Shown in pieces: positions 14,094-48,993 of a stretch of 64,000 nt of DNA. The stretch lies in the sequence record MH719082.1. One strand, written 5' to 3'. The translations under genes were made by a program, and so were the position numbers. The notes under the pieces were generated by a model that saw only the letters and a program-made list of their open reading frames with translations, made no database searches and was not told the origin of the DNA. Origin of the DNA: Escherichia phage vB_EcoM_IME392. Each line of letters opens with the position of its first letter. Position 1 is the first letter of the stretch.

Positions 14094-14442
14094 ATTTTTC
14101 GTGTCGAACGATGGTATCAATACAGTCCATATCCATGATAACGAAGATTACAGACTCCCCATTATCTTCCACTACCTTAAGCACCTGCCATCCTTGCTCC
14201 ATAAAGACTTCTCTCATAGCGGCAAGATCTCGCACATGCATAAGCTCGGTAACTGTAATCACTCTGGGACGAATGAACTTCTTCAGAGTTATCTCGTAAA
14301 GATAGGTCCCATAGTTCTTGTAGAGATTATCTACATTACAGGTATACAGACCTAACTCGGGACCCCACCCCTGCGATAAGGTCTGGATGAGCTCATAACT
14401 AGGCCAATCCCATTTATGCTTACTACGATGATACAGAATCAT
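14092..14442 (-). CDS. hypothetical protein
   Basis: ORF track. Confidence 0.45.
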   Translation of the reverse strand: MILYHRSKHKWDWPSYELIQTLSQGWGPELGLYTCNVDNLYKNYGTYLYEITLKKFIRPRVITVTELMHVRDLAAMREVFMEQGWQVLKVVEDNGESVIFVIMDMDCIDTIVRHEK

Positions 14443-14728
14443 TAGCTACCACCTTATGATAAAATCTTCCGGTAGTGTGGATTACAGTAGCTATGTACTT
14501 AGCGTCCACTTCAGTGCCTAGCAGATTAGATACCGCCTTAATTACAGTTGCTGCTGGGTGTTTATGGTTAATTACCACATCCAGCATCTTACGATCGGCA
14601 GATGGGAAGAACTTCTTATTCCGACGAGCAATATTCTTAACCACCATGTTGGGATCATCGGATGTGTAACCAGCTATGGCCATGGTGGTCAGTAAGTCAA
14701 AGAATTCGACTGGTTTAGTGGACTTCAT
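14423..14728 (-). CDS. hypothetical protein
   Basis: ORF track. Confidence 0.45.
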   Translation of the reverse strand: MKSTKPVEFFDLLTTMAIAGYTSDDPNMVVKNIARRNKKFFPSADRKMLDVVINHKHPAATVIKAVSNLLGTEVDAKYIATVIHTTGRFYHKVVANDSVSS

Positions 14729-18760: not shown

Positions 18761-19095
18761 AGCGCGAAGTAATACCAGTCACCATAAACGCGAATCAGCA
18801 CTTCCTGACTTTCTGCGTCCACATTAGTGAAGTAGAAGCTACCGAATCCGAACTCCAGAGACTCACCAGTCTGCATGAGATCTGCCATTTCATCCATGAA
18901 CTTATCGAAGTCTGGATCACGGTCCTGAACTACAGCGACTTCCACCTCCTTGGCGTACAATTCAGAACGACCAATATGAGGAGCAGCCTGGCGGAACTCC
19001 ATTACAGCACCACGAGCCAGATTTTCCTCAGCAGCATCCCGAACAGAGTCAGTATCGATTGTAGCGAAAGATTTAATCGCATTTAAACGTGACAT
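18757..19095 (-). CDS. hypothetical protein
   Basis: ORF track. Confidence 0.45.
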   Translation of the reverse strand: MSRLNAIKSFATIDTDSVRDAAEENLARGAVMEFRQAAPHIGRSELYAKEVEVAVVQDRDPDFDKFMDEMADLMQTGESLEFGFGSFYFTNVDAESQEVLIRVYGDWYYFAL

Positions 19096-22083: not shown

Positions 22084-22547
22084 AAAGCCTCCAGAACTAA
22101 GTGGACGTTATTCCCTACGCTGTCATTTACAACGATATGGGATTTAAACTTATACATTTCGTTGATCACATCAGTCATGTGAATCACCGGAATATACACT
22201 CGGTCAGAACCAACTACTGCAACTTCATTAAGCCAGTCATAGTCGATTTCATGGGTCTTCAGGAGATTTATGAGATCACGGTACATAAGGCTTACAGACT
22301 TGATTCCACCACTCATACGAGCAGACCAGTCTGTAGCCGGAACTGATTCAATTTCCTTCCTACCTTTCATCTTACGGCGAAAGATGGCGGACTGAACGTT
22401 CCATAACTCTGAGAATTCTTGATCGGGGATTTCTCGACCATGCTTGGTCCGAGAGACCAGTCGAGCTTGAGGATCGGCATTAGGACGGAACTGCTCAGCG
22501 ATAGAAGGAGCAGCTTGTTGGAAGGCAGCGAAAAGGGATGTAGACAT
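22080..22547 (-). CDS. hypothetical protein (155 aa)
   Basis: Internal ATG at 22547 with GGAGA RBS; longer ORF would overlap conserved element. Confidence 0.45.
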   Translation of the reverse strand: MSTSLFAAFQQAAPSIAEQFRPNADPQARLVSRTKHGREIPDQEFSELWNVQSAIFRRKMKGRKEIESVPATDWSARMSGGIKSVSLMYRDLINLLKTHEIDYDWLNEVAVVGSDRVYIPVIHMTDVINEMYKFKSHIVVNDSVGNNVHLVLEAL

Positions 22548-22584
22548 GACTTTCTCCAGTCTTTCAAGGTCGCAGGCAACGCGA

Positions 22585-22675
22585 CGGATCATTCGGCGGG
22601 AAACGCCCCGCCCCAAGTGAACGGGCTGTGGGGCGTCTCAAACTTCGCCAGGAAGCGTCTTTTTGAAACTATTTT
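22585..22675 (-). repeat. composite conserved intergenic element, family B, divergent copy
   Basis: GGCGGG-aaacg-CCCCGCC hairpin + CCCAAGTGAACGGGCT... + T-rich tail. Confidence 0.35.
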
Positions 22676-22678
22676 TGA

Positions 22679-22918
22679 TTAGAATCCCTGGGTAGCAATC
22701 ATGTAAACCAGGTTAGTTATCCCAGCCTCATCCGAGGAATCAAGGCCGATTCCTTTAAGGACTTCTGCAGGAACATGCTCACGAATAGCCGGAACCAGAG
22801 CAGCATGGTTACCTTTATCAAACTCTTCCCAAGACTCAGCTGGGATTGCCTCGACCAGTTCACTGAAAGAGGTGGTAGTGATGATTTCATCGTAGCGGGA
22901 TTGAGAAATGATTGTCAT
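22679..22918 (-). CDS. hypothetical protein
   Basis: ORF track; TATAAT and GGAG upstream. Confidence 0.45.
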   Translation of the reverse strand: MTIISQSRYDEIITTTSFSELVEAIPAESWEEFDKGNHAALVPAIREHVPAEVLKGIGLDSSDEAGITNLVYMIATQGF

Positions 22919-22943
22919 GATTTAACTCCGTATTATAATGAAC

Positions 22944-23048
22944 GGCGAAGCGGCCAACCCGCTCCACCCAAAAGAACGGGCTTATCTGACGTCCAAAGTT
23001 CGTTTTATTTTTCAAAAACATTTCGACAATGAAAAATATTTTTGAAAA
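22944..23048 (-). repeat. composite conserved intergenic element, family B, copy 4
   Basis: CACCCAAAAGAACGGGCTTA...GTTCGTTTTATTTTTCAAAAA...TTTGAAAAATA. Confidence 0.45.
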
Positions 23049-23051
23049 ATA

Positions 23052-23065
23052 GGCCATCCCTGGCC
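23052..23065 (-). terminator. intrinsic terminator-like hairpin
   Basis: GGCCA-GGGA-UGGCC followed by UAUUUUUC, just after stop of 23073-24533. Confidence 0.45.
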
Positions 23066-23072
23066 TAATGAA

Positions 23073-24533
23073 TCAGCGAGCTTTGCTGATTGCCTGGGTA
23101 ATACGTTGGGACTGTTTACGCCAGGATTGCTGCAGACGAGGATTAAGCTTCATGATTACAGACATAATCATGGCTAGTACTCCGCGCTTAGCCTTAGGAC
23201 TACCAGACTTAGCATCCTTCAGGTATTTACGAGCCACAGTTTTAATATCCTGGGATGGCCAGGTCTTAATGACTGGTGACTTAACCTGCTTAGCTAGCGC
23301 TACGAAAATTACCAGAGTGCTGATAAGGTCGGAGGTACGTACAGAGCCTTTACCACCCATCAGTACTTCGATAACCTTGTTAACGCGACGGAGCACTTCC
23401 GACGGAGCTGCTTCGTCTACTCCCTCAGGCATAGCCGTACTCTCAGAAGCAGATAGCTTCCAGGAGTTAGCAGTAGCCATATCGGTAGTGTAACATGCTG
23501 ACAGCTCATCGTCGGATGCTTCGGACAGATTCATGAACTCGTTCTTAGTCGGGTTCCAAACCATATCCTTGTACTTAATGTACCAGCGACCACCATCGTC
23601 TTTGATCATATCAGGGACTTCACCCTTAGACAGATCTTCGTTGACAGATCGTCCCATCAACCAGCGGTAAACAGGTTTCAGATCCCAGCGACCATCAGGA
23701 GTAACCTTCACATCCTGGCCAGTCAGATCCTTAATTACCTGAGTTACGTTATCGCCAGTCTGGTTGATCTTATGGTTAGTCACCAGCTGCGCTACGGACT
23801 TCTTATTACCCTGATCGTCGGTACGTTCTGCACCACGTAAGATCATGGTGGAGTTAATCTGGTCCATAGTGAATCCAGCATCGATAAGACGCTTGATCTG
23901 AGCCATGACCTGATCATACTCCTTCGGCAGCTTATCTACGAACTCGTTGAGCTGCAGACCAGCACCAGCAGTCATGCTACCACGACCCGCCGCATCACCG
24001 GTAGTCAGTCGAGCAATAACAACCAGTTTAGAACTGGAAGATAGCTTAGGATGGTTAATGAATTTCGACAGAAAATCATTTACCGTAGTGATCTCTTCAG
24101 GGTTATTAGCACGGTTGCTAGATGCCAGTTCTGTGAACATACCCATAGCGGAACCATCCGGAGTCTCATAAGCATCCATCATATTCAGCTGGGTAGAACC
24201 ACCTTCCCCATCTTCGGCGAAGAATGCATCAGCTGAGAACGTACCAGAACGAACTTCTTTCTGGACGAACTCACGCATCAGGTTCTTAGCCATCTGAGGA
24301 GACATCATCATCAGGTAGGAATAGTAGTCACGCAGGTTAGCATCACTGGTATTCTGCATCTTGCGGAACATAGTGTACCACTGGGATGAACGACCATTCT
24401 TCTCGATGTCAGCAATCGCATGATCCAACATACGCTGGTCAATAAATCGCTCAACGTCAGCAAGCGCCTCGTCTACTTCTTCGCCGAATCCAGCAACAGA
24501 TAGCAGGACAGCGGCTTTATTTAAGTTTTCCAT
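23073..24533 (-). CDS. hypothetical protein (486 aa)
   Basis: ORF track; followed by hairpin plus U-tract. Confidence 0.55.
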   Translation of the reverse strand: MENLNKAAVLLSVAGFGEEVDEALADVERFIDQRMLDHAIADIEKNGRSSQWYTMFRKMQNTSDANLRDYYSYLMMMSPQMAKNLMREFVQKEVRSGTFSADAFFAEDGEGGSTQLNMMDAYETPDGSAMGMFTELASSNRANNPEEITTVNDFLSKFINHPKLSSSSKLVVIARLTTGDAAGRGSMTAGAGLQLNEFVDKLPKEYDQVMAQIKRLIDAGFTMDQINSTMILRGAERTDDQGNKKSVAQLVTNHKINQTGDNVTQVIKDLTGQDVKVTPDGRWDLKPVYRWLMGRSVNEDLSKGEVPDMIKDDGGRWYIKYKDMVWNPTKNEFMNLSEASDDELSACYTTDMATANSWKLSASESTAMPEGVDEAAPSEVLRRVNKVIEVLMGGKGSVRTSDLISTLVIFVALAKQVKSPVIKTWPSQDIKTVARKYLKDAKSGSPKAKRGVLAMIMSVIMKLNPRLQQSWRKQSQRITQAISKAR

Positions 24534-24638
24534 CTTAAATCCTTATTTAAGTGATCACACGCGAGAAATAAATGGGATGATCAGTCCCTACTCGCTAAGT
24601 GGTGAACGGATTCATCCGTGTAGTCTCCGTCCACCAGA

Positions 24639-31857: not shown

Positions 31858-32931
31858 TTATTCCAGAATGAACGGAGACTTATCCCAGAGGCGGTTCGCG
31901 ACCCATTTCACGAATGGTGAATTAACCAGATGCTCGCACTGGATAGACATGTGAGCTCCAGTAGTCTTGCACAGGTAATGAGCACCTGCTAACCACATCA
32001 TCACATCCAGAGTTGATCCTGGTTGGAACTCTCGACCAACATCTTCCATTACGTATTCTAGAATACTGTGATCGCTATTATAACGAGAAGCAGCATCTTC
32101 AAGAGTAGCGATGTAATGCTGGAAGTAGGTACGGATCTTATACCAGGAATTAAGTGATCCGAGATCAATCGTAGTTACCGGAGCTTCATTAATGTCGTCA
32201 ACATAAGCTCGGATATTACTTACCTGCTTCTTGATGTTCGACACTTCCGGATACCAGTGGAGATCATCCGTCATCACCACATAGTTGCCCATATCTACTT
32301 TGAGCATAGTTGCGATGATTTCCTGGATGATCGTGAACTCCACCAGATTAACGTTAGTCAATCCCCAGATTAGATCATTACTACGGTTGAATACCGTGCA
32401 GTCCAGACCACCATTACGGTACTTAAACGATAGAGCAATGTTGCAGATCATATCTGCGGTATTGATGCTGCCGATGCTGTTTACCAAACCTACATCAGAA
32501 TCACGGCTGGGATCGTGAATAGTAGCCACGCACTTACGGTTACCCAGGTCAGAACGGAGGCGGTCTGTTACAGTCTGGAGTTGATCGTAGTTATACAGAC
32601 GCTCACCGTAAGCACCACGCCAGGTAACCATATCATCGCTAAACATCTTAGCGCGAGGAACCATAATCGACATCCAGTTATCGATTGCATAGCCACCAGA
32701 CAGTACCCACAATACTTCCCCCATAATTCCGAGGATATTGTCTTTACGTTCTGGATGAGCCATCCAACGATTAATCGGATTACTTAACTCAACTACAGCA
32801 TGACCGATGGATACTACCGCCGAAGAGTTAACAGAAGTTCTGGACTTCTGCAACTCACCAGCCTTATCCATAGTATTGATGCTGTTAACCAGGATTTCAG
32901 TATTACTGTTACCGCGAATTACCGAGATCAT
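31858..32931 (-). CDS. thymidylate synthase-fold pyrimidine methylase/hydroxymethylase
   Basis: ADMICNIALSF...LDCTVFNRSNDLIWGLTNVNLVEFTII colinear with ThyA PCH...[26 protein letters not shown] core, catalytic Cys retained. Confidence 0.6.
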   Translation of the reverse strand: MISVIRGNSNTEILVNSINTMDKAGELQKSRTSVNSSAVVSIGHAVVELSNPINRWMAHPERKDNILGIMGEVLWVLSGGYAIDNWMSIMVPRAKMFSDDMVTWRGAYGERLYNYDQLQTVTDRLRSDLGNRKCVATIHDPSRDSDVGLVNSIGSINTADMICNIALSFKYRNGGLDCTVFNRSNDLIWGLTNVNLVEFTIIQEIIATMLKVDMGNYVVMTDDLHWYPEVSNIKKQVSNIRAYVDDINEAPVTTIDLGSLNSWYKIRTYFQHYIATLEDAASRYNSDHSILEYVMEDVGREFQPGSTLDVMMWLAGAHYLCKTTGAHMSIQCEHLVNSPFVKWVANRLWDKSPFILE

Positions 32932-33739: not shown

Positions 33740-34711
33740 CTAGCTAAACTTATACCAGCGAGGTCTCATACGGATCTCGTGATTCAGTTTATGTAGTTTC
33801 GAGAATTCGCAGAATGAGTTGGTGAACATCTGACGAGTATAGAACCGCTCATCCTCCGGCATGAAGTGGAACCATTTCTCCGGCTCCCATGCATACCCGA
33901 AATGAGCACATATCTCTTTGATGTTCTGATACCACCATTCCACGAACATCTGGTAGCCGCAAGGAGGGTTCTGGTCATTAAGCATGTACCATACCCCATC
34001 CTGCGTCCCGGGTCCACATACGATAGCATCGTTATCTGTGTACGCAGTCTCTTTAGAGTAGGACATAGTTGCCCAGCATTGATATGCCATGAACGGACCT
34101 AATCCAGATACCTGTAACAGATGCTCGATGGCCTCGGTAGCGAACGGAGACTTCCATGCCAGTAAGATAGGATCACTGTAGGTCTTCACCAGATAGGCTC
34201 TGGCAGCTACACTGTACTTAATATCCTCTGGACATACTTCATTAGCCATCTTAACTGCTGTGCTAAGGAAGTAGGCATTTGATTGCTGTGGAGCAGTGAA
34301 CGGAGGACCATCCTCATAACGACGTAGCTCTTCACGACCCATGTTATGTATGTCGTCATAGCTCATCTCATAAAGAGGAAGGACTCTGCGGAAGCGATCC
34401 ATATATGAATCACCACGGTTTATCATCTGGAAGAGTACCACGTTAAGCGCCTTACTCTCCCAGCTTAGGGAATCGTTCTCCAGAATGTTCTTGATAGCCC
34501 ATACTGTTTCACGATCGTGCTTACGGAACACGTTAGTGAATTTAAACTTACTAATCCACTTATGTTCTGTCCACGGAGGAGGTAGCTTAAGTATCTCCTT
34601 CTTATAATAAACCTCAGTCCGCTCGCGGTTATACTCCACATACTCACGTAGCTCCTCGGGATTTATCATCCCGAGTAACCCGTCGAAGTGCAAACCTAAC
34701 GGTTTAGACAT
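33740..34711 (-). CDS. hypothetical protein (323 aa) in modification cluster
   Basis: ORF track; position between kinase and glycosyltransferase. Confidence 0.5.
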   Translation of the reverse strand: MSKPLGLHFDGLLGMINPEELREYVEYNRERTEVYYKKEILKLPPPWTEHKWISKFKFTNVFRKHDRETVWAIKNILENDSLSWESKALNVVLFQMINRGDSYMDRFRRVLPLYEMSYDDIHNMGREELRRYEDGPPFTAPQQSNAYFLSTAVKMANEVCPEDIKYSVAARAYLVKTYSDPILLAWKSPFATEAIEHLLQVSGLGPFMAYQCWATMSYSKETAYTDNDAIVCGPGTQDGVWYMLNDQNPPCGYQMFVEWWYQNIKEICAHFGYAWEPEKWFHFMPEDERFYTRQMFTNSFCEFSKLHKLNHEIRMRPRWYKFS

Positions 34712-40810: not shown

Positions 40811-40817
40811 TAGTTAG

Positions 40818-42065
40818 TTACAGTTTACCGATCATCTTCTGAATCATCTCGTCAGAAGTCTGATTCTCTACCTTAGCACGACGTTCTTGCAGATTAGCAA
40901 TGCGGTCGTCGTGATCTTTCTTACGTAGCATGCTGATGCTACGGCTAAGGCAGGAATTCAACACTTCCTGGGTAATACCGAGAGCTTTGATGATCTGAGC
41001 ATCAGACTTATCCTGCATAACCAGCTCGCCCACTTTAGGAAGAATCTGGTAAATCTCGATGTCTCGGTCAATCTTCTTAAGAGACTCAGTCTTATGGACG
41101 GAGAATGCCTGATTGTAGAGAGCCATCGTGACTGCAATCCAGTCGCGAATACCCATCGTCACCAGTTGACCATTGTAGGCTACCTGGATACGATGCGAGC
41201 GGTTCATGTAAGCAATATTCATGCATGCTTCGTGAACCTCGTCCATATCGATGGTCCTGATACGGGGAGCCTTCATTACTCGGATATAGATCTTATCCTT
41301 GGACATGTTCTTGACCAGGATCTTACCTTCTGATAACCACTTATTCAGGAACCCGATGCGAGGAGTAATTACCTCACCAGACCCGATGATGTCGATGGTG
41401 TCGGTATTGACGCGAGTTACCTTAAGGGTAAGGCCTAAGCGACCTACACCAGTTTCCCATAAGGACTTAAGGTCTGACTTACTCGGCACGATATCATACC
41501 CGTACTGAGCCTTAAGCAGATTATAATCGTCATGCTTGTAGGCTTCCAGCAGACTCTCGTAAGTGAATGCTGGGATACGGGACTGAATACCAGTAGCCCA
41601 TGAGAAGGTACCATACATCAGAGCATACGGAATAGGCACTGGAAGGTATGCGTATTCCATCTTCTCTTCACCTTCAACCTGCGGAACATAGTCCGCTAGA
41701 CCGAAGTAGTATTCTGCACGATCTTCGTTCAGGCCAACCTTCGTGTAACGAGGAGCAGCACCAGGAACTTCTTCCAGCAACTTAACGCCGAAAGATCCCT
41801 GACCATCAATAGCACCGATGCGAGCAAGACGGGAAATAGTCCCATCGATAGACTGGTCACCGAATGGGTGTAGCGACTGAGTTTCTGAGATAGCGCTCAG
41901 AGTCCCCACCAGCTTCCCACGAGCAATGCTATTCAGAGCCATGTAGATACGGCGCTGGGCAGGAATCAGGCCATCGATACCGGGAACTACACGATGAAGA
42001 GCACAATACACACTGTAGTCAGTGTAGTTCTTGGTGATGAATTCAGAAATCTTTACCTGTTCCAT
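40818..42065 (-). CDS. type II topoisomerase DNA-cleavage subunit (GyrA/gp52-like)
   Basis: DGLIPAQRRI and HPFGD blocks; APRYTK around predicted active-site Tyr. Confidence 0.7.
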   Translation of the reverse strand: MEQVKISEFITKNYTDYSVYCALHRVVPGIDGLIPAQRRIYMALNSIARGKLVGTLSAISETQSLHPFGDQSIDGTISRLARIGAIDGQGSFGVKLLEEVPGAAPRYTKVGLNEDRAEYYFGLADYVPQVEGEEKMEYAYLPVPIPYALMYGTFSWATGIQSRIPAFTYESLLEAYKHDDYNLLKAQYGYDIVPSKSDLKSLWETGVGRLGLTLKVTRVNTDTIDIIGSGEVITPRIGFLNKWLSEGKILVKNMSKDKIYIRVMKAPRIRTIDMDEVHEACMNIAYMNRSHRIQVAYNGQLVTMGIRDWIAVTMALYNQAFSVHKTESLKKIDRDIEIYQILPKVGELVMQDKSDAQIIKALGITQEVLNSCLSRSISMLRKKDHDDRIANLQERRAKVENQTSDEMIQKMIGKL

Positions 42066-42067
42066 AA

Positions 42068-44053
42068 TTACTCCTTAAACAGACCGTAGTCTTCTAACAG
42101 TTGGCGACGAGCACGAGATGAGTACAGCAACTTACGAGCGGCATCGAGATGCTCTTCATTATCATCGTAGGTTACCTGGATAAGACGGCGAGATTTCGAG
42201 TTAATGATGAATTGCTCAGTTTCTTCTTCGGTATATGACCCGAGTCCCTTACGACGTTCAACATAGCACTTATCGAAGTCGATCTTATCCTTCTCGTCAG
42301 CGTAGTAGAACTCGGTCTTCTTACCATTCTTAACTACATAGAACGGAGCTTCGAGTTTATACAGACGACCATCTTTAACCAGCTCTGGAGCATGGATAAG
42401 GAAGATTGAGCTAATGAGGTTACTGATGTGCTGACCATCAACATCAAGGTCGGTCATAATGATGATCTTACCGTAACGAGCCTTATCTATGTCAAACATC
42501 TGGCCCATACCACACCCGATAGTATTGATGATCGCCAGCAGCTCTGGGTTATTCACGAATTCCATGATATCCATGGAAGCCGAGTTACGCATCTTACCGC
42601 GAAGAGGAAGCACCGACTGATACTCATTACGCAACTTGATGATATTACCAGAAGCAGACGGACCCTCTGTGATGAACAGCTCACGAAGATCCCAGCGGTC
42701 GGACGGAGATTCGTAGATCTTCGCCATGTCACCATCCATAGCGGCCTTACGGTGATCATCACCCATCACCAGCTTAGACTTAATGAAGTCCATGTTGGAG
42801 AGTTTATTCAGGCTAGCTTTGTAAGCCAGGATCTTGGCAATCAGAGCATCAAAGAATTGCTTATTCTTCTCGTATACCAGGCTGAAGTAGAATGTGAGCT
42901 GACTCAGGCATTCTTTCTCGTAGAAGAAGTACTCGCCATAATAGTCGTAATCGTTGATTTGCTCATCATTCAGCATCAACTTATTCTTAGCCATGATTTC
43001 CCAGTCGCTCCAGGACATACCGAGGCCAGTTAACTTCTCCTTAGTCTGCGAGGAGAATGCTGTACGATAGCTGGAGAAGACGTTAGTGAACACGATCAAT
43101 CCCAGCTTAGCATCACCAACAGTGATAGCAGAGTTAACTTTATTCAGCATACCGCCGAGCGCTCTCGTGACCAGCTTCTCATGCAGACCACCATGCGGGT
43201 TATTGATCAAGTTGATCATGTCTACATGGGAGTAGGACATATTCTTATCAGAGTAGCCCAACTCACCAGAGAAGGTCAGACGATCGTTGAACGAGAACTC
43301 GTACTTGACTGTAGTATCGAGGAACAGCTTCTCATTCTCTGCAACATCACGACGAAAATCCCAGGTAGCCAGAGCTTCACCATTAACGGTGATAGTTGCA
43401 TCACGACCAATCAGGGAGATCTTCAGAGGAACAGTATCCACATCAGACCAGATGCTGCGGTACAGAGTCGCATCAGGCACCATGAAGACTGCTGTGGAGA
43501 AGTCGGTAGCCTTTAACGTCTCGAGCACTTCGTCTGGGAAGCCATCGTCGTGAAGATCATTCAGATCATTGATCACTCCATCGATTTCCATAACACCACG
43601 GCGGAATCCGAGGACATAGAACTGACCTGGCTCCATAGGGATGTGTGCCTTATCTCCCTGCATTACGCGACGGATTACAACGAATCGCTCGGACACTGCG
43701 TTAACAGCGGAGCTACCTACGCCATGGGTACCAGAGGTAATTTCACGGTTATCGCCCAGCTTAGAGCCAGCATGCAGATCTGTTACAGTAGAGAACAGAA
43801 TAGATTTAGACGGATCTTCCGGATCAGCGTAGATAGGAATACCACGTCCGTTATCGGTAACCAACTTGTAGGCTTCACGGTTAATGATCTGCACTAGGTT
43901 AGCATAACCATTAAGCAGCTCGTCCTCCGCATTATTGATTATTTCCTGGAGAGGATGAGTGTAGTTAATCGGGTCACCGAGATACATGGATACGTTCTGA
44001 CGAACGTTATCAGGGTAACGCAATCTTGTGATTTCAATAGCATGTTCTGACAT
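42068..44053 (-). CDS. type II topoisomerase ATPase/TOPRIM subunit (GyrB/gp39-like)
   Basis: GHKL ATPase motifs DNGRGIP and GTHGVGSS; TOPRIM-like EGPSASG. Confidence 0.75.
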   Translation of the reverse strand: MSEHAIEITRLRYPDNVRQNVSMYLGDPINYTHPLQEIINNAEDELLNGYANLVQIINREAYKLVTDNGRGIPIYADPEDPSKSILFSTVTDLHAGSKLGDNREITSGTHGVGSSAVNAVSERFVVIRRVMQGDKAHIPMEPGQFYVLGFRRGVMEIDGVINDLNDLHDDGFPDEVLETLKATDFSTAVFMVPDATLYRSIWSDVDTVPLKISLIGRDATITVNGEALATWDFRRDVAENEKLFLDTTVKYEFSFNDRLTFSGELGYSDKNMSYSHVDMINLINNPHGGLHEKLVTRALGGMLNKVNSAITVGDAKLGLIVFTNVFSSYRTAFSSQTKEKLTGLGMSWSDWEIMAKNKLMLNDEQINDYDYYGEYFFYEKECLSQLTFYFSLVYEKNKQFFDALIAKILAYKASLNKLSNMDFIKSKLVMGDDHRKAAMDGDMAKIYESPSDRWDLRELFITEGPSASGNIIKLRNEYQSVLPLRGKMRNSASMDIMEFVNNPELLAIINTIGCGMGQMFDIDKARYGKIIIMTDLDVDGQHISNLISSIFLIHAPELVKDGRLYKLEAPFYVVKNGKKTEFYYADEKDKIDFDKCYVERRKGLGSYTEEETEQFIINSKSRRLIQVTYDDNEEHLDAARKLLYSSRARRQLLEDYGLFKE

Positions 44054-44088
44054 AATTTCTCCGGTCAGGTTTAAATAAGCTCACACAG

Positions 44089-44120
44089 TTTAACAGCCTT
44101 TGGAGGCCTCAAAGGAGCGG
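44089..44120 (-). promoter_or_regulatory. 31-bp conserved intergenic motif
   Basis: Upstream of topoisomerase ATPase gene start at 44053. Confidence 0.5.
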
Positions 44121-44752
44121 TTCACGAACAGGACTAAATCCTCTACTCTGGACTTATCTACCCACTCTGTTCTTCCTGGTAAGGACCTATTAGACTCGGA
44201 GAAGAAAGATAATCTCACTTTTGATTCTAAATCCACTCCCTCTTCTTTAGGCATCTCGATTAAGATTAGCGGGGTCATACCGATGCCTAATCCATCTAAT
44301 CTTCTTTCTATATTTGAAGTAATCCCATATTTAGCATTTCCAGATTGGTCCAATACGATATAAAAGACCACCTTACCTTCTGGAATGGTAGATATCGCTA
44401 GGTTCTTAATCACAGAGTTAGCGTATTCAGGATTCAACCATCGTTTATGATTTGAAGAGGATATCACTTTAGACATCTTCTTCTGGTAGTTCTCATCTTC
44501 CCACATTTTAATGTTGCGATTAGTCATGGAAACAGACCTAGCCCTGGTGGCGCATTCTGATCTTCCACATGTAGGACGATAGCCCTTAATCACGGATTTA
44601 AAGGAGCAGGGTTTTCCACATGAACATATTTTTACAGGAAAGAATTTTAAGTAATATTCATGCGGAGTTAAGCCATGAGATTTGGCATGGGAGGGAAATG
44701 CCTGGCCTCTTACTTCGGCAGAGCATATTCTACATTTATGATTCATAATCAT
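44090..44752 (-). CDS. putative GIY-YIG-like endonuclease with N-terminal zinc-binding region
   Basis: FYIVL...YGITSNIERRL resembles GIY-(x10)-YIG with downstream Arg; N-terminal Cys/His cluster. Confidence 0.35.
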   Translation of the reverse strand: MIMNHKCRICSAEVRGQAFPSHAKSHGLTPHEYYLKFFPVKICSCGKPCSFKSVIKGYRPTCGRSECATRARSVSMTNRNIKMWEDENYQKKMSKVISSSNHKRWLNPEYANSVIKNLAISTIPEGKVVFYIVLDQSGNAKYGITSNIERRLDGLGIGMTPLILIEMPKEEGVDLESKVRLSFFSESNRSLPGRTEWVDKSRVEDLVLFVNRSFEASKGC

Positions 44753-44990
44753 ACCACTTAGTTAATTCAAGGAAGTCATCCATCGCGGAATTAAAGAAGG
44801 AGTCTATCTCCTTAGCCATTTCCTTGGCGAAGCGACCAGATTCGGTCGACATCACTACCTTAGCCTCGCCCATAGGGTGCTTGACCACTTCGTAGATTCC
44901 CAGATTTGGGTAATACACTATGCTGGATAGGAAGTTTACAGACTTAACCACCACAGTATTGAATTGAGTTACTTCCACCATCTTAATCAT
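44736..44990 (-). CDS. hypothetical protein
   Basis: ORF track. Confidence 0.4.
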   Translation of the reverse strand: MIKMVEVTQFNTVVVKSVNFLSSIVYYPNLGIYEVVKHPMGEAKVVMSTESGRFAKEMAKEIDSFFNSAMDDFLELTKWYDYES

Positions 44991-45226: not shown

Positions 45227-45249
45227 ATAATAATCCCAAATTAGAAGAT

Positions 45250-45335
45250 CCGCAGCGGGAACGCCCCGCCACCCAAAAGAACGGGCTTTAGGAGGTCCCA
45301 TAAATCGTTTTATTTTTCATTATTTGAAAAATAAA
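45250..45335 (-). repeat. composite conserved intergenic element, family B, copy 5
   Basis: GCGGG-aacgc-CCCGC hairpin + CACCCAAAAGAACGGGCTTTA...AAATCGTTTTATTTTTCATTATTTGAAAAATAA. Confidence 0.5.
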
Positions 45336-45352
45336 ATAATCTACACAAAAAT

Positions 45353-45368
45353 GGGGTCCGAAGACCCC
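45353..45368 (-). terminator. intrinsic terminator (UUCG-tetraloop hairpin plus U-tract)
   Basis: GGGGUC-UUCG-GACCCC followed by AUUUUUGUG, just after stop of SbcCD-like gene. Confidence 0.6.
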
Positions 45369-45373
45369 ATCAA

Positions 45374-48139
45374 CTACTCTTCCATAAACGTAGTTACGTT
45401 ATTGGAAAGGTAGGCACCAATTTTAGTGTTATATCTCTGGAAGGTAGGAACATGGGTAACCAGGATGATGTGGTTAACCGGAATGTCCTGAAGAGCATCA
45501 ATAGCTACGTCCAGAGTATTTACGTCCAGATTTCGCAGAGACTCATCCAGAATCAGACATCCTGCTCCCTTACTGAGGCTAATCAGCTTACCGATGAACA
45601 GTACGTCCACCAGGTTCTGTTGGCCACCAGACAGATCAGCATACGGAATTAACAGATCTCCAACTTTGTATTGAACATCGAAGTCAATCTTGATAGCTCC
45701 GTTAGCCTGTTCACGAACAGTAGAAATTACCATATCTCCACCAGTCATCATAGCAGCTACTTCTTTGAAGATAGAAGCAGTTACATCGCCGCTATTAGTG
45801 AACAGGCTCTGATACTCAACCAGTTTCTGATACTTAGGCTGGAGAATAGCCAACTGCGCATTAGCATCGTCGAGTTTCTTCTGAGCCTCGTCCATACGAG
45901 TCTTCAGACTACGAAGAGTAGCCATAGCGCCGATGGTAGAGTTGATCTCGATTAGCTCCTGCTCCAGCTTAGCCACTTCCTCTTCGAGAACCTGCACGGA
46001 AGGATAGGACTTAGTCTTACTCTTAAGCACTTCCACGTCGCTATTAACGGTATGGATCTTCTGACGAAGAGTAGCCACATCGTTCAGCAGACCGGACTTA
46101 CGTCTTAGTTCGGCTAATTCACTATTCTTAACGTTAAGCTTCTCTCTGAGTTCATCAGACTTAGGAGCCTTACTGATCTCAGCCTCGACAGCATCCAGCT
46201 TAGTAACAGATGCAGATCCTTGGGTTTCGAGATCATCCATCTTAGCTCTGATAGACTTCTCTACTTCTTTAATGTCCTCTTCCTTAAGGGACTGCTTACA
46301 GGTTGGGCACGTAGTAGGGATGTTGCGCATCTCGGTCTCGAGCTTAGTTAACTCCTTCTCTAAGCGAGTTAACTCATTAGTCAGAGATTCACTCTGATTA
46401 TGCAGTGACCGGATGTTACCTTCTACTTCAGATACCTCGGCATCCAGAGTAGTGATTTCGTCCCGGACCTTAGCGAGAGCGGAGTTAACCTCCTCTTCGT
46501 TAAAGTCAATCTTGAACGCAGCCAGAGAATCTTCCAGCATCTGGAGACTCTGTAGCTTACTGTCCAGATTACCCAGCTCACGGATCTTCTGACGAATATC
46601 ATCAATCTGTGGCAGGATTCGAGACTTATCTTCTTCCAGATTACTCACGTCCTTAAGTTTGGAGAAGTCGTGATCCTCCATGGTCTTAAGGACTTCTTCC
46701 TGAGCAGTTACCTGGGTCTGATAGTTACTGATCTCTACCTTACAGTTCTTAGCCGAGGCCTTTGCGACAGCTTCGTACTGGTTAATTACGGTAAGACCGA
46801 GCATCTTCGTGATCAGGTTAATACGTTCGTTGAATCCGAACTGGCTCAAGAACGGAGGACTATTCTGGGAACGATACAGAAGATCGAAGTGTTCGAGGAA
46901 TGGCAACATCTCCCAGAGCTTAGCTTCACGCTCTCGGATACTACCACCATCCATCTCATCACCATCAATCCAGACTCGGAAAGTCTGACCACCAGCCCAA
47001 TGGCGACTGATCAGGAATTCACGACCACCATACTCTAGCATCACTTCTACCAGAAGATGGTCTTGACCGCGTCTCACCACGTTACGAGGACTGTCGCTAC
47101 CAGTTAAGCAGTAGTTAAGAGCTCTCAGCAACGAGGATTTACCGTTACCAGTTTCGCCGTAGAGATAAGTAAGACCTCGCTTAAAGTTAAGCTCCAGCTT
47201 ATCAATACTGCGGAAGTTCTCTACCTTAATACTATTCAAGGTAAAGTTAAGGTCGAAGACCGACTCGGAACGATCAACGTGGGTAGACATCTCATCATGG
47301 ATATCTTTAAGACCCTTTGCCCGAACGACTTTGTCGATTACTTCTTCAACATCGATAGATTTAACTGAGATGCGTGAAGCATCCATCATCTGAGCTCTTT
47401 CACGAACTACCAGATGAGGGTAATTATCCATACCGGCAGGTACTTCATCTTCCCAGTACATCTTGAGGTATTTGTAGGAGTCAGACTCTACCGGAACCCG
47501 CTGCCAGGAAAGATCTTTAAGATCCAGCAGCACCAAGCTACCGTCCTGACAGTCACCCATCCCGTGAGGAATAGGTACGTTAACCGAGTGGGTATGACCG
47601 ATGCTGATAGGACGATGGATGTCACCAGCAAATCCCAGCTCATACTTAGTATCGTCGAACTCCTGACCAAACATAGAGGACAGAGTAATGTGGCCAATAA
47701 GGACATCTACTTTATCTTCGATAAAACTGAAGTCCTGGGTAGGACGCCAGTCGCTAAAGGCGACCTTACGGCCACCTAAGTTCAGGATTTTACCATCGAC
47801 ATATTCTGCCTTACCAGCGAGGATCGGCACCAGTGAGTTCTGGTAGTGATCAGCATCTACTGATTTGGAGTTAATGTCGTGGTTACCCAGAATATAATAA
47901 ATCTCGGTAAACTGCTCACCGAGGATCTCCATAAACTGGGATGTAGCGTGTGCAATTTTAGGCTCATGCTGAGCCTTATGCACTAAGTCGCCAGCGATAG
48001 ACAGACAGGTTACTTTATGTTCCCTGCCCATCTCCGCCATACGATGAGCTAAACCGATAAACTGCTTTAAGCGAAACCCTTCCGAGTTATGCTGCTGAAA
48101 TTCATGGATATGAATATCAGCTACGATCAACATTTTCAT
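45374..48139 (-). CDS. fused SbcD/Mre11-like nuclease and SbcC/Rad50-like ATPase
   Basis: N-terminal metallophosphatase motifs (DIHIHE, GDLVH, GNHD, GHTH); then Walker A GETGNGKS, coiled coils with CPTC zinc hook, signature LSGGQQ and Walker B ILDES in one 921-aa ORF. Confidence 0.8.
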   Translation of the reverse strand: MKMLIVADIHIHEFQQHNSEGFRLKQFIGLAHRMAEMGREHKVTCLSIAGDLVHKAQHEPKIAHATSQFMEILGEQFTEIYYILGNHDINSKSVDADHYQNSLVPILAGKAEYVDGKILNLGGRKVAFSDWRPTQDFSFIEDKVDVLIGHITLSSMFGQEFDDTKYELGFAGDIHRPISIGHTHSVNVPIPHGMGDCQDGSLVLLDLKDLSWQRVPVESDSYKYLKMYWEDEVPAGMDNYPHLVVRERAQMMDASRISVKSIDVEEVIDKVVRAKGLKDIHDEMSTHVDRSESVFDLNFTLNSIKVENFRSIDKLELNFKRGLTYLYGETGNGKSSLLRALNYCLTGSDSPRNVVRRGQDHLLVEVMLEYGGREFLISRHWAGGQTFRVWIDGDEMDGGSIREREAKLWEMLPFLEHFDLLYRSQNSPPFLSQFGFNERINLITKMLGLTVINQYEAVAKASAKNCKVEISNYQTQVTAQEEVLKTMEDHDFSKLKDVSNLEEDKSRILPQIDDIRQKIRELGNLDSKLQSLQMLEDSLAAFKIDFNEEEVNSALAKVRDEITTLDAEVSEVEGNIRSLHNQSESLTNELTRLEKELTKLETEMRNIPTTCPTCKQSLKEEDIKEVEKSIRAKMDDLETQGSASVTKLDAVEAEISKAPKSDELREKLNVKNSELAELRRKSGLLNDVATLRQKIHTVNSDVEVLKSKTKSYPSVQVLEEEVAKLEQELIEINSTIGAMATLRSLKTRMDEAQKKLDDANAQLAILQPKYQKLVEYQSLFTNSGDVTASIFKEVAAMMTGGDMVISTVREQANGAIKIDFDVQYKVGDLLIPYADLSGGQQNLVDVLFIGKLISLSKGAGCLILDESLRNLDVNTLDVAIDALQDIPVNHIILVTHVPTFQRYNTKIGAYLSNNVTTFMEE

Positions 48140-48993
48140 GCCGACTCCAGTATCTTAGCCGTAACGGATCTGTTATATTTACCCAGTACACCATGGAAGT
48201 ACGGAGGGAATCTGAATCCTGGACAGAACTCTTCCAGAGTAGGTAGGATGCGCTGTTGCATCTGTACCTTAGACTCCTGTTCTTTAATGATGCTGTGGAC
48301 TTCTGTATCGGTTAGGATTCTGTCTAGACGCATCAGTTCCATATTAGAACGAATACGGAATTCAACCGATTGGCTTAAGCTACCATCTTTGTAGGCATTA
48401 ATCGCCTCCTTAACAGTGCTTAATCCAGTAGCCACTCCTGGAATGTTGTCGGAGCCGTCCCCGACGATGGCTTTGTAGATGAGATAATCCTTATGATCGT
48501 CCAGATCGTAGGTCTTCATTAACCAAGGAAGATCCACTAAACCATCGTCAGGATTTAAGACACAAGTATTCTCATTAATTGATAAGTACCAGTCACGGTC
48601 ACGAGAATGCAACATAACCGGACGTCCTGAATGAGCATAGTAGTAGCCTAAATCATCGGCTTCCACACCAGACACCTGGATACACTTAATACCCAATGCT
48701 GGGAAGATCTGCTCATGAAGTACATTCATAGCAGCCCACAATGCCTCAAAGCTCTCGTCATACTCACGATTAGCTTTATACTCCGGATTCTTATCTTTAG
48801 GCCTGTATCTCCACTTGCCTCGATCATATAGCATGATTAGCTCGGAGTTATATCCGTCTTCCTTAATCAACTTCGCTACACTACCAATAGTGGAGGAGAC
48901 CGTAGGACCTAAGTCCTGGGACTTACCGGCTGCGAACCAGTTACGAAGAGTCAGCCACTGACAATCGACTGGTATTAACGGGATGTCATTCAT
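48136..48993 (-). CDS. 5'-3' exonuclease / flap endonuclease
   Basis: GDGSDNIPGV helix-hairpin-helix motif typical of FEN / Pol I 5' nuclease family. Confidence 0.7.
   Translation of the reverse strand: MNDIPLIPVDCQWLTLRNWFAAGKSQDLGPTVSSTIGSVAKLIKEDGYNSELIMLYDRGKWRYRPKDKNPEYKANREYDESFEALWAAMNVLHEQIFPALGIKCIQVSGVEADDLGYYYAHSGRPVMLHSRDRDWYLSINENTCVLNPDDGLVDLPWLMKTYDLDDHKDYLIYKAIVGDGSDNIPGVATGLSTVKEAINAYKDGSLSQSVEFRIRSNMELMRLDRILTDTEVHSIIKEQESKVQMQQRILPTLEEFCPGFRFPPYFHGVLGKYNRSVTAKILESA

What the first reader, a model, noticed from the sequence alone, without database searches (positions are those of the whole stretch)
44090..44752. Possible GIY-YIG-type endonuclease between topoisomerase and SbcCD-like genes
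The 220-aa ORF has an N-terminal Cys/His cluster and a C-terminal FYIVL...YGITSNIERRL segment resembling the GIY-YIG catalytic motif. Free-standing homing endonucleases commonly insert between conserved replication genes in large phages; the domain order (zinc region first) is atypical, so this is tentative.
Basis: partly seen in the sequence, partly recalled or inferred. Interest (0 to 1): 0.4.

Follow-up and report, generated by a model that had tools for sequence, protein, structure and literature searches.

The report
Free-standing T5orf172-type homing endonuclease gene
This 220-codon gene is most likely a selfish "homing endonuclease" gene (zinc-finger DNA-binding front end, GIY-YIG-superfamily T5orf172 nuclease back end) that has inserted between a small gene and the topoisomerase gene of an E. 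coli phage and is missing at that spot in the phage's closest known relative; it is a well-known kind of element, though from a poorly annotated branch.

Summary
The ORF is real: 44090..44752, minus strand, 220 aa (218 aa from the likelier ATG at 44746). It is identical to a hypothetical protein of Escherichia phage vB_EcoM_IME392.

- **Direct Pfam hits fail.** The whole protein gives nothing, and the C-terminal half gives GIY-YIG at E=0.16.
- **Homologues score clearly.** Full-length homologues hit T5orf172 at 2.5e-10 and 6.8e-6 in the aligned region.
- **Catalytic-type residues are conserved.** Y131, K141, G143, R151, E176 and E196 are invariant in 13 homologues. E176 aligns with the experimentally catalytic E180 of ICP1 Odn.
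- **The fold agrees.** A confident AlphaFold model (pLDDT 86-89) matches T5orf172 and GIY-YIG viral proteins, including Odn, at Foldseek probability 1.0.

The N-terminus is a C2H2 (Ros-like) finger, a C4 zinc site and two WxxxxY helical repeats.

The closest relative, EP_H11 (~94% nt), lacks the gene through a clean ~616-bp indel. The insert has the lowest GC in the window. A homologue in a Vibrio phage sits in a 1011-bp, group-I-intron-like insertion that splits an RNA polymerase gene.

Verdict: a free-standing homing endonuclease gene, a new member of a known kind. Nuclease-last order is normal for T5orf172 proteins. Interest is low to moderate.

The parts
44090..44752 (-). Homing-endonuclease-like ORF of 220 aa. 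The likelier start is the ATG at 44746 (218 aa), which overlaps the stop of the upstream 84-aa ORF by 11 nt.
   Evidence: identical to the IME392 hypothetical protein, 218 aa. The AlphaFold2 full-length model has mean pLDDT 89.5.
44639..44740 (-). Residues 5-38: a beta-beta-alpha C2H2 zinc finger (C7, C10, H22, H26) followed by the 'HGLTPHEYY' helix, which is Ros/MucR-like. Inferred DNA-binding module.
   Evidence: Secondary structure E4-6, E13-15, H16-24, H30-37. 18 of 118 homologues hit Pfam ROS_MUCR in this region, best 1.6e-13. The family profile hits C2H2 fingers and Ros 2jsp at E=1.2e-4. The query itself has no direct Pfam hit here.
44543..44632 (-). Residues 41-70: second Cys cluster. 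C43, C45, C62 and C67 are nearly invariant and suggest a C4 zinc site with a conserved G-Y between the pairs.
   Evidence: C43, C45, C62 and C67 are at least 90% conserved in the 118-sequence alignment. They are invariant or nearly so in the 14 full-length homologues.
44387..44542 (-). Residues 71-122: three long helices carrying two ~21-aa repeats (W84-EDEN-Y89 and W105-LNPE-Y110). Inferred linker or DNA-contacting repeats.
   Evidence: Helices H65-85, H87-106 and H108-122. The region is shared with a canonical N-terminal GIY-YIG protein that has a NUMOD-like domain, P0010 (query 80-133).
44099..44377 (-). Residues 126-218: T5orf172-type (GIY-YIG superfamily) nuclease domain with topology beta-beta-alpha-beta-alpha-alpha. 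Key residues are Y131, K141-Y142-G143, R151, E176 and E196.
   Evidence: These columns are invariant in 13 homologues. P0028 and P0072 hit T5orf172 at 2.5e-10 and 6.8e-6 in the aligned region. E176 aligns with Odn E180. The domain model has pLDDT 86 and pTM 0.78. Foldseek against BFVD gives 17 hits at E<=1e-3, including T5orf172 proteins, a GIY-YIG nuclease and ICP1 ORF88.
44124..44739 (.). About 616 bp present here and absent from Escherichia phage EP_H11, where about 9 bp occupy the site. Breakpoints are good to roughly +/-10 bp. This is the lowest-GC stretch of the 64-kb window.
   Evidence: GC is 40.0% against a window mean of 45.4%, the 0.3rd percentile of same-size windows.
44090..44123 (-). 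The last 10 codons (RSFEASKGC-type tail) and the stop of the ORF. They are encoded by sequence shared with EP_H11, which includes an imperfect hairpin (CCTTTGAGG/CCTCCAAAGG).
   Evidence: read directly from the sequence. In EP_H11 the same bases form the 3' end of the 87-aa gene, in another frame.
44736..44990 (-). Upstream 84-aa ORF whose C-terminus is altered at the insertion: ...ELTKWYDYES* here versus ...ELTGWYSLPEPLL* in EP_H11.
42068..44053 (-). Downstream neighbour: topoisomerase II large subunit (GyrB-like, Toprim domain).
   Evidence: 98.8% aa identity to EP_H11.
45374..48139 (-). Fused SbcD (Metallophos) plus SbcC/Rad50-like gene, two small ORFs upstream of the element.

Best explanation
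The ORF is a free-standing homing endonuclease gene (HEG).

**Architecture.** The protein has an N-terminal DNA-targeting region and a C-terminal T5orf172-type nuclease domain of the GIY-YIG superfamily. The N-terminal region is a C2H2 Ros-like zinc finger, a C4 zinc site and two WxxxxY helical repeats.

**Inferred mechanism.** When this phage co-infects a cell with a relative that lacks the gene, the zinc and helical modules bind a site near the junction between the 84/87-aa gene and the topoisomerase gene. The T5orf172 domain then cuts the DNA, using Y131, K141/Y142, R151 and E176, with E176 probably the metal-binding glutamate. Recombinational repair from the HEG-carrying genome copies the gene, and some flanking sequence, into the cut genome.

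**Expression.** The gene appears to be co-transcribed with the surrounding replication and recombination genes and translationally coupled to the upstream ORF: the ORFs overlap by 11 nt and there is no promoter signal above background.

**Shown versus inferred.**
- Shown: the domain architecture, the conserved catalytic-type residues, the fold, the presence/absence polymorphism, the compositional oddity, and the mobility-like context of a homologue.
- Inferred: nuclease activity, target site and actual homing.
For: **The gene is absent from the closest relative.**
- EP_H11 (about 93-96% nt identity in the flanks) lacks the gene. About 616 bp here correspond to about 9 bp there, with clean junctions.
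- tblastn finds no copy elsewhere in EP_H11 or in any other phage record at more than 28% identity.
- The more distant Acinetobacter phage Ab1-TPeters has SbcC, a small ORF and topoisomerase II with no such gene.

**The insert looks foreign.**
- It has the lowest GC in the window: 40.0% against 45.4%, the 0.3rd percentile.
- The ORF's last 10 codons and its stop are borrowed from flanking phage sequence, and the insertion rewrites the C-terminus of the upstream gene.

**The C-terminal domain is a T5orf172-type nuclease domain.**
- A full-length BLASTP alignment to P0028 (E=2e-17) places the query's residues 128-211 on that protein's Pfam T5orf172 hit (2.5e-10; MUG113 5e-10). P0072 also hits T5orf172, at 6.8e-6.
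- Y131, K141, G143, R151, E176 and E196 are invariant in 13 homologues.
- E176 aligns with E180 of ICP1 Odn. The E180A mutation abolishes Odn cleavage in vitro and in vivo (PMC8263062).
- The AlphaFold2 models are confident (pLDDT 89.5 and 86.1).
- The domain model matches BFVD proteins named T5 Orf172 domain, GIY-YIG nuclease, CapR-homology and ICP1 ORF88 (Odn), with probability 1.0 and TM 0.6-0.78.
- The top PDB hit is the GIY-YIG-fold protein 1zg2 (probability 0.84), and Slx1 is also listed.

**The N-terminal module travels with nucleases.** Its homologues are fused to many different nuclease domains: TnsA_N, MTES_1575, DUF559, GIY-YIG, Phage_endo_I and T5orf172. This is the modular pattern of homing endonucleases.

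**A homologue shows independent mobility.**
- The Vibrio phage 150E35-1 homologue (tblastn 2e-6; Pfam T5orf172 E=0.012, sub-threshold) lies in a clean 1011-bp insertion. That insertion splits an RNA polymerase gene which is continuous in Vibrio phage 1.031.O.
- That insertion gives a weak group I intron match, has a U before the 5' junction and ends in G.

**Literature.** T5orf172 is a GIY-YIG subfamily, and T5orf172 genes behave as HEGs in ICP1-like phages (PMC10448857).
Against: - The query gives no significant direct hit to Pfam T5orf172 or GIY-YIG, nor to PDB sequences.
- Foldseek against the PDB is not significant (best E=0.19).
- The presence/absence test rests on a single close relative. 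No other close relatives exist in IMG/VR or in the metagenome contigs searched.
- The polarity of the indel (gain here versus loss in EP_H11) is not strictly resolved.
- No nearly identical copy of the gene is known elsewhere: the best homologue is 33% identical among 1.84 billion representatives. Recent spread is therefore not documented.
- Flank divergence near the junction is no higher than the genome average apart from about 20 bp, so no target-site immunity signature can be claimed.
- Cleavage and homing are untested.
Confidence: 0.8

Rival explanations
1. It is a domesticated T5orf172 protein that no longer homes. It would serve the phage as a sequence-specific nuclease or repressor, for example against a satellite or competing phage (as ICP1 Odn does) or as a transcriptional regulator (as PLE CapR does), with the Ros-like finger providing specificity.
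For: - Structural neighbours include Odn and CapR-homology proteins.
- T5orf172 domains are documented in such domesticated roles (PMC8263062; PMC8096241 listed).
- The gene has no close copies elsewhere.
- It is tightly embedded in an operon and translationally coupled.
Against: - The clean presence/absence at a site abutting conserved replication genes, the low GC and the disrupted end of the neighbouring gene are the signatures of HEG insertion.
- No PADLOC defence model matches.
- A homologue is intron-like and splits an essential gene.
- The two roles are not mutually exclusive.
Confidence: 0.12
2. It is a decaying or inactive remnant: a zinc-finger DNA-binding protein whose T5orf172-like domain has lost catalysis and merely persists after an old invasion.
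For: - The direct profile scores are sub-threshold, so the domain is divergent.
- The C-terminal tail is read-through into flanking sequence.
- HEGs commonly decay after fixation (PMC10448857).
Against: - The ORF is full length compared with its homologues (223-275 aa) and has no frameshifts.
- All six family-invariant residues are intact, including the Arg and the Glu equivalent to Odn E180.
- The fold is predicted with high confidence.
Confidence: 0.06
3. It is not a nuclease at all. The GIY-YIG-like motif would be a chance resemblance in a Ros/MucR-type transcription factor, or the ORF would be spurious.
For: No Pfam, NCBIfam or PDB sequence hit passes threshold for the query itself.
Against: - 118 homologues were found at E<=1e-3.
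- About 12 of them are full-length and carry the same C-terminal motifs.
- Two reach the Pfam T5orf172 gathering score in the aligned region.
- The Foldseek BFVD matches have probability 1.0.
Confidence: 0.02

Closest known systems
T5orf172-domain nucleases and putative HEGs of ICP1-like phages (e.g. ICP1 Odn/gp88; Pfam PF10544, GIY-YIG superfamily)
   Same: - The C-terminal T5orf172-type domain has the Y...K-x-G...R...E core.
- The glutamate aligns with Odn's catalytic E180.
- DNA-binding domain is N-terminal and the nuclease C-terminal.
- The model is a structural match to ICP1 ORF88.
- It shows variable presence next to essential genes (PMC10448857).
   Different: - The DNA-binding part is a C2H2/C4 zinc module with WxxxxY repeats, not a RepA_N or the ICP1-type domains.
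- The sequence is too divergent for a direct Pfam T5orf172 hit.
- There are no paralogues in the 64-kb window, whereas ICP1 carries many.
Canonical GIY-YIG homing endonucleases of T4-like phages (I-TevI, SegA-G)
   Same: - It belongs to the same superfamily and has the same beta-beta-alpha-beta-alpha core.
- It has a modular 'beads on a string' design that includes a zinc-binding element.
- It is free-standing, inserted between conserved DNA-metabolism genes, and polymorphic between related phages.
   Different: - The domain order is reversed: in I-TevI and the Seg proteins the nuclease is N-terminal.
- The second motif is K-[IFY]-G rather than Y-I-G.
- The match to Pfam GIY-YIG is only E=0.16.
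- It has the T5orf172-type 'G-x-T-E-W' C-terminal motif.
Vibrio phage 150E35-1 protein CAH9016168.1 (250 aa, annotated hypothetical)
   Same: It has the same full-length architecture: zinc finger, C4 cluster and a T5orf172-like C-terminus. It also lies in an insertion that is absent from a close relative.
   Different: - It is only 27-28% identical to the query.
- It lies inside an RNA polymerase gene in a probable group I intron, rather than between genes.
Ros/MucR C2H2 zinc-finger DNA-binding domain (Pfam PF05443; PDB 2jsp)
   Same: It shares the C-x2-C...H-x3-H finger followed by a 'G-L-T-P-x-E-Y' helix. Homologues hit ROS_MUCR, and the family profile hits 2jsp.
   Different: The query itself scores nothing against ROS_MUCR. 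Only the finger part is shared, and here it is fused to a nuclease rather than acting as a stand-alone regulator.

Membership tests
GIY-YIG superfamily, T5orf172/MUG113 branch (Pfam PF10544/PF13455) | Significant match of the protein itself to the family profile HMM | tested here: not met
   The whole protein gives no T5orf172, MUG113 or GIY-YIG hit at E<=10. The C-terminal half alone gives GIY-YIG at E=0.16, 12.7 bits, against a cut-off of 22.6.
GIY-YIG superfamily, T5orf172/MUG113 branch (Pfam PF10544/PF13455) | Homology to proteins that do pass the family threshold, in the same region (transitive membership) | tested here: met
   P0028 hits T5orf172 at 41.2 bits (cut-off 20) over residues 150-234, which align to query 128-211 in a full-length BLASTP alignment (E=2e-17). 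P0072 scores 27 bits. phmmer E-values against 1.84 billion proteins are 5.4e-6 and 1.4e-4.
GIY-YIG superfamily, T5orf172/MUG113 branch (Pfam PF10544/PF13455) | Core residues: Tyr in beta1, [Y/K]-x-G in beta2, catalytic Arg in alpha1, catalytic Glu after beta3 | tested here: met
   Y131, K141-Y142-G143, R151 and E176 are invariant in 13 homologues. E176 aligns to Odn E180, which is catalytic by mutagenesis (PMC8263062).
GIY-YIG superfamily, T5orf172/MUG113 branch (Pfam PF10544/PF13455) | beta-beta-alpha-beta-alpha fold | tested here: met
   - The AlphaFold2 domain model has pLDDT 86.1, with elements E11-18, E24-29, H32-39, E44-52 and H53-67.
- Foldseek against BFVD gives 17 hits at E<=1e-3 and probability 1.0, to T5orf172 and GIY-YIG proteins.
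- The PDB search points the same way but is not significant: 1zg2 at probability 0.84, E=0.19.
GIY-YIG superfamily, T5orf172/MUG113 branch (Pfam PF10544/PF13455) | Metal-dependent DNA cleavage | not testable with these tools
   This needs purified protein and a cleavage assay.
Free-standing homing endonuclease genes of phages | Presence/absence polymorphism at the same locus in closely related genomes, with otherwise collinear flanks | tested here: met
   EP_H11 lacks the gene and the flanks are 92-99% identical. Only one close relative was available.
Free-standing homing endonuclease genes of phages | Nuclease domain joined to a separate DNA-binding module | tested here: met
   Zinc-finger, C4 and helical-repeat N-terminus joined to a T5orf172 C-terminus.
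Free-standing homing endonuclease genes of phages | Insertion next to or within conserved essential genes, with foreign composition | tested here: met
   The gene lies 36 bp upstream of the topoisomerase II large subunit gene, within the SbcCD/exonuclease/topoisomerase cluster. Its GC is at the 0.3rd percentile.
Free-standing homing endonuclease genes of phages | Cleavage of the HEG-less allele and super-Mendelian transmission in mixed infection | not testable with these tools
   This needs IME392 x EP_H11 crosses and in vitro cleavage mapping.
HNH homing endonucleases | HNH/His-Me finger motif or profile match | tested here: not met
   No HNH family appears in the Pfam, PHROG or NCBIfam scans. 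The Cys/His cluster is instead a C2H2 finger plus a C4 site.
Intron-encoded homing endonucleases | The ORF lies inside a self-splicing intron | tested here: not met
   Rfam finds no intron model in window 43700-45500 at E<=1. The insert consists of essentially the ORF alone. By contrast, the Vibrio phage homologue does look intron-borne.

The most novel reading that the evidence does not exclude
This protein and its roughly 12-20 full-length relatives may form a distinct, currently unannotated clade of homing endonucleases. They are mostly metagenomic, score poorly or not at all against Pfam T5orf172, and include a probably intron-encoded member in a Vibrio phage RNA polymerase gene. Their architecture is a C2H2 Ros-like finger, a C4 site, WxxxxY repeats and a T5orf172 domain.

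The N-terminal targeting module is shared with at least six other nuclease classes and with DUF7487.

In IME392 the enzyme would also have to recognise and cut thymidine-hypermodified (5-hmdU-derived) DNA. That would make it a candidate modification-tolerant or modification-dependent site-specific nuclease.
Probability: 0.25. Interest if true: 0.5.

Novelty: new member of a known kind. Interest (0 to 1): 0.3.

Why it matters
- **Annotation.** It turns a 'hypothetical protein' in a little-studied group of coliphages (IME392/EP_H11, proposed RP13-like, presumed T-hypermodified DNA) into a specific, testable mobile-element prediction.
- **Experiment.** The two sequenced phages form a natural HEG-plus / HEG-minus pair for a homing experiment.
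- **Targeting module.** The zinc-finger and repeat module recurs with several nuclease types. It may therefore be a reusable DNA-recognition module worth characterising.
- **Limits.** Free-standing GIY-YIG/T5orf172 HEGs next to replication genes are textbook phage biology, so this finding changes no concept.

Tried and rejected
- **HNH endonuclease.** Rejected: no hit in any library, and the Cys/His residues form a C2H2 finger plus a C4 site.
- **Intron-encoded HEG or an RNA element in the window.** Rejected: nothing relevant in Rfam.
- **Defence-system protein.** No PADLOC match.
- **Own promoter or terminator.** Promoter-like sites are no more frequent than in shuffled sequence: 6 against 4.0 +/- 2.1.
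- **Paralogues in the window.** None.
- **More close relatives of the phage, to widen the presence/absence test.** IMG/VR and the metagenome contigs hold only phages with about 33% identical topoisomerase. The phage collection holds only EP_H11 as a close relative.
- **Word-indexed homologue searches.** They returned only the protein itself, then 4 proteins, then nothing for the C-terminal domain profile. The exhaustive HMMER search was the one that worked.
- **Profile of the C-terminal domain against PDB sequences.** Only the GIY-YIG-fold protein 1zg2, at a non-significant E=0.69.
- **Foldseek against the PDB.** With either the full-length or the domain model, GIY-YIG proteins (1zg2, Slx1) appear but nothing is significant.
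- **Genomic context of P0091 and P0118.** The contigs were too short to be informative.
- **Excess flank divergence as a sign of target-site immunity.** Not seen beyond about 20 bp at the junction.
- **The weak Pfam DUF6033 hit (E=0.01) and the NuoE hit.** Judged to be noise.
Full report
**Observation**

The ORF is present as described, at window 44090..44752 on the minus strand, 220 codons (sequence). An exact-sequence relative is the 218-aa 'hypothetical protein' of Escherichia phage vB_EcoM_IME392, which starts at the second in-frame ATG at 44746. That start is preceded by AAGTGG at a reasonable Shine-Dalgarno distance. It overlaps the stop of the upstream 84-aa ORF (44736..44990) by 11 nt, so I regard 44746 as the likelier start.

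- C7, C10, H22 and H26.
- C43, C45, C49, C62 and C67.
- VVFYIVLDQSGNAKYGITSNIERRL at residues 128-152.

**Neighbours**

The neighbours were confirmed with Pfam:
- Downstream, 42068..44053: a GyrB-like topoisomerase II large subunit (Toprim, DNA_gyraseB).
- 40818..42065: the GyrA-like topoisomerase subunit.
- Upstream, after two small ORFs (84 and 104 aa), 45374..48139: a single 921-aa protein combining an SbcD-type phosphoesterase with an SbcC/Rad50-like ATPase that has a zinc hook.
- 48136..48993: a 5'-3' exonuclease.

**What the protein is: direct searches**

Direct library searches of the query are almost empty.
- Pfam gives only a noise-level DUF6033 hit.
- PHROGs gives phrog_8130, of unknown function, at 1.4e-5.
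- NCBIfam, PDB sequences and PADLOC give nothing meaningful.
- The C-terminal half alone gives Pfam GIY-YIG at E=0.16 over the 'FYIV...YGIT' segment, which is below threshold.

**What the protein is: homologues**

The exhaustive HMMER search of 1.84 billion representatives found 118 proteins at E<=1e-3, and only the protein itself below 1e-30. Most hits cover only residues ~3-120. About a dozen align over the full length.

In the 13-sequence alignment of the C-terminal domain, six positions are invariant: Y131, K141, G143, R151, E176 and E196.

Two of these full-length homologues pass Pfam's own threshold for T5orf172:
- P0028 scores 41.2 bits, E=2.5e-10, and also hits MUG113 at 5e-10.
- P0072 scores 27 bits.

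BLASTP of the query against P0028 is collinear over the whole length (E=2e-17). It places the query's residues 128-211 on the T5orf172 hit.

An HMM of the C-terminal alignment aligns to the T5orf172 domain of ICP1 Odn (gp88) so that the query's E176 falls on Odn E180. E180 is the glutamate whose E180A substitution abolishes Odn cleavage in vitro and in vivo. It was chosen as the equivalent of I-TevI's catalytic glutamate (PMC8263062).

**Structure**

AlphaFold2 with the 14-sequence alignment gave a confident full-length model with mean pLDDT 89.5. It contains:
- a beta-beta-alpha finger (residues 4-24) plus a helix (30-37);
- a small beta region around the second Cys cluster;
- three long helices (65-122);
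- a C-terminal beta-beta-alpha-beta-alpha-alpha domain (127-218).

The domain-only model (pLDDT 86.1, pTM 0.78) was searched with Foldseek against two libraries.
- **PDB.** Nothing is significant. The best hit is the GIY-YIG-fold protein 1zg2 (probability 0.84, E=0.19). The GIY-YIG nuclease Slx1 appears with TM 0.46.
- **BFVD viral models.** There are 17 hits at E<=1e-3, all at probability 1.0, with query-normalised TM 0.53-0.78. The named proteins in the list include 'Bacteriophage T5 Orf172 DNA-binding domain-containing protein', 'GIY-YIG nuclease' (Fadolivirus), 'CapR homology domain' proteins and ICP1 ORF88, which is Odn itself.

I therefore file the C-terminal domain as a divergent T5orf172-type member of the GIY-YIG superfamily with an intact catalytic-type constellation. 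The direct-HMM criterion is not met, and I say so in the membership table.

**N-terminal region**

Eighteen of the 118 homologues hit Pfam ROS_MUCR (best 1.6e-13) and many hit C2H2 models. In P0002, P0047 and P0072 the ROS_MUCR match covers the segment aligned to the query's finger. A profile of all 118 sequences hits C2H2 fingers and the Ros structure 2jsp (E=1.2e-4) in the PDB.

C43, C45, C62 and C67 are at least 90% conserved across the 118 sequences, which suggests a second, C4 zinc site.

Residues 71-122 contain two ~21-residue repeats, W84..Y89 and W105..Y110, in long helices. This stretch is shared with P0010, a canonical N-terminal GIY-YIG protein carrying an I-HmuI NUMOD-like domain. 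It abuts NUMOD3 in P0013.

Across the 118 proteins the same N-terminal module is joined to several families:

| Family | Members |
|---|---|
| DUF7487 | 42 |
| TnsA-like N | 5 |
| T5orf172 | 4 |
| MUG113 | 4 |
| MTES_1575 | 4 |
| DUF559 | 3 |
| GIY-YIG | 1 |
| Phage_endo_I | 1 |

A targeting module shuffled among different nuclease domains is what homing endonuclease families look like. That this module binds DNA is an inference.

**Is it mobile?**

The only close relative in the phage collection is Escherichia phage EP_H11, whose topoisomerase is 98.8% identical. Its annotation shows the topoisomerase gene followed directly by the homologue of the 84-aa ORF.

BLAST and pairwise alignment give two collinear blocks:
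- Window 40000-44123 aligns to L001 1001-5123.
- Window 44761-45246 aligns to L001 5143-5628.

Reading the coding strand, the two genomes agree up to ...GAA/GAG-TTA/CTA-ACT/ACA-AAG/GGC-TGG-TAT and again from GAACCGCTCCTTTGAGGCC onwards. About 616 bp here (44124-44739) replace about 9 bp (AGTCTTCCA) in EP_H11. This has three consequences:
- The upstream gene ends ...ELTKWYDYES* here and ...ELTGWYSLPEPLL* in EP_H11.
- The endonuclease ORF starts inside the insert.
- The ORF's last 10 codons and its stop lie in sequence shared with EP_H11, read in a different frame from the 87-aa gene.

Further points:
- The insert is the lowest-GC stretch of the whole window: 40.0% against 45.4 +/- 2.1%, the 0.3rd percentile.
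- tblastn finds no copy anywhere else in EP_H11, and there is no paralogue in the window.
- Acinetobacter phage Ab1-TPeters (topoisomerase 47% identical) has SbcC, one small ORF and topoisomerase, without a homologue.
- No further close relatives exist in IMG/VR or in the metagenome contigs. The polymorphism therefore rests on one comparison, and gain versus loss is not formally polarised.

**Family-level support for mobility**

The best phage-database homologue is a 250-aa protein of Vibrio phage 150E35-1. It matches by tblastn at 2e-6, has the same architecture, and hits T5orf172 at a sub-threshold E=0.012. It lies between two 'RNA polymerase subunit' genes.

In Vibrio phage 1.031.O (91% nt identity) these two genes are one continuous 3792-nt gene. 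The difference is a clean 1011-bp insertion, L002 4870-5880, between L018 1838 and 1839.

Several features of the insertion suggest a group I intron:
- It gives a weak Rfam group I intron match: 20.9 bits, E=0.011, below the gathering score.
- It is preceded by a U and ends in G.
- It contains ...AAGATATAGTCC..., which I recognise from my own knowledge as the conserved J8/7-P7 core of group I introns.

This relative is therefore probably an intron-encoded homing endonuclease. In the window itself no intron is detected, so the gene here is free-standing.

**Mechanism**

The best explanation is a free-standing HEG.
1. The Zn and helical modules bind a site at or near the 87-aa-gene to topoisomerase junction of a HEG-less co-infecting genome.
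2. The T5orf172 domain cuts the DNA.
3. Recombinational repair copies the gene across.

Expression is probably by read-through and translational coupling from the replication-gene operon. Promoter-like sites are not enriched: 6 against 4.0 +/- 2.1 in shuffled sequence.

The steps that are shown are the architecture, conserved residues, fold, indel, composition and the behaviour of the homologue. The steps that are inferred are DNA binding, cleavage, target position and homing.

The rival explanations are:
- domestication as an Odn- or CapR-like specific nuclease or regulator;
- an inactive remnant;
- no nuclease at all.

They are listed with their confidence values. The first cannot be excluded and is compatible with a HEG origin.

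**Comparison with the known**

The element works like the T5orf172 HEGs described in ICP1-like phages and like T4 Seg or I-TevI enzymes.
- It differs from I-TevI and Seg in domain order and in the K-x-G second motif.
- It differs from the ICP1 proteins in its DNA-binding module.
Odn has an N-terminal DNA-binding domain and a C-terminal nuclease (PMC8263062). The general pattern is 'one terminus DNA-binding, the opposite terminus nuclease' (PMC10448857).

**Context worth knowing**

IME392 (MH719082.1) and EP_H11 are listed among the proposed 'RP13-like' phages, with genes for 5-hmdU synthesis and presumed thymidine hypermodification (PMC12686479). The window encodes a 5-hmdU DNA kinase at 33740..34711 (Pfam HMUDK_hel, 3.2e-35). 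If the DNA is indeed hypermodified, the endonuclease must act on modified DNA.

**Verdict**

This is a new, divergent member of a known kind of element. Interest is low to moderate (0.3).

Noticed in passing
window 33740..34711 (-), and 31858..32931 (-): The 323-aa ORF is a 5-hmdU DNA kinase (Pfam HMUDK_hel, E=3.2e-35). The EP_H11 counterpart of the 357-aa ORF is annotated as thymidylate synthase. IME392 and EP_H11 are listed among 'RP13-like' phages with presumed T-hypermodified DNA (PMC12686479).
   Followed up: partly
L002 4870-5880 (Vibrio phage 150E35-1, OX241562.1) versus L018 1838|1839 (Vibrio phage 1.031.O): A clean 1011-bp insertion carrying a homologue of the endonuclease splits an RNA polymerase gene that is continuous in the relative. 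It gives a weak Rfam group I intron hit (20.9 bits, E=0.011), with a U before the 5' junction and a terminal G. It is probably an unannotated group I intron with a T5orf172-type homing endonuclease.
   Followed up: partly
window 14104..14721; 18794..19083; 5511..5727: Further segments present in the window but absent from EP_H11: 618 bp carrying ORFs of 116 and 101 aa (the latter with a weak DUF7740 hit), 290 bp inside a 112-aa ORF, and 217 bp. No nuclease domain was detected in them.
   Followed up: partly
window 24456..24638 versus EP_H11 22492..23543 (L016): EP_H11 has about 1052 bp, including a 303-aa CDS with no Pfam hit, where the window has only 183 bp. This is a reciprocal presence/absence difference of unknown nature.
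   Followed up: partly
window 45247..45251 versus L001 5629..5837: EP_H11 carries about 209 extra bp, with an annotated 48-aa CDS, between the 104-aa ORF homologue and the SbcCD-like gene. The window lacks this stretch.
   Followed up: no
window 45374..48139 (-): SbcD-type phosphoesterase and SbcC/Rad50-like ATPase with a zinc hook are fused in one 921-aa ORF. In the EP_H11 record this gene is cut by the arbitrary ends of the linear record, and the two ends overlap by 127 bp.
   Followed up: no
L007, L008, L013, L014 (metagenomic and IMG/VR phage contigs), match 4001-6430: The topoisomerase II large-subunit match spans 2430 nt in these contigs, against about 1950 nt in the window and the other relatives. 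This suggests an insertion (intein, intron or extra domain) in that gene.
   Followed up: no
proteins P0004, P0015, P0016, P0021 and 38 others: 42 of the 118 proteins that share the N-terminal zinc module carry Pfam DUF7487 (best 6.4e-69), which starts right after the zinc module. Its function is unknown. It may be a further DNA-binding repeat region or another effector domain of this kind of element.
   Followed up: partly
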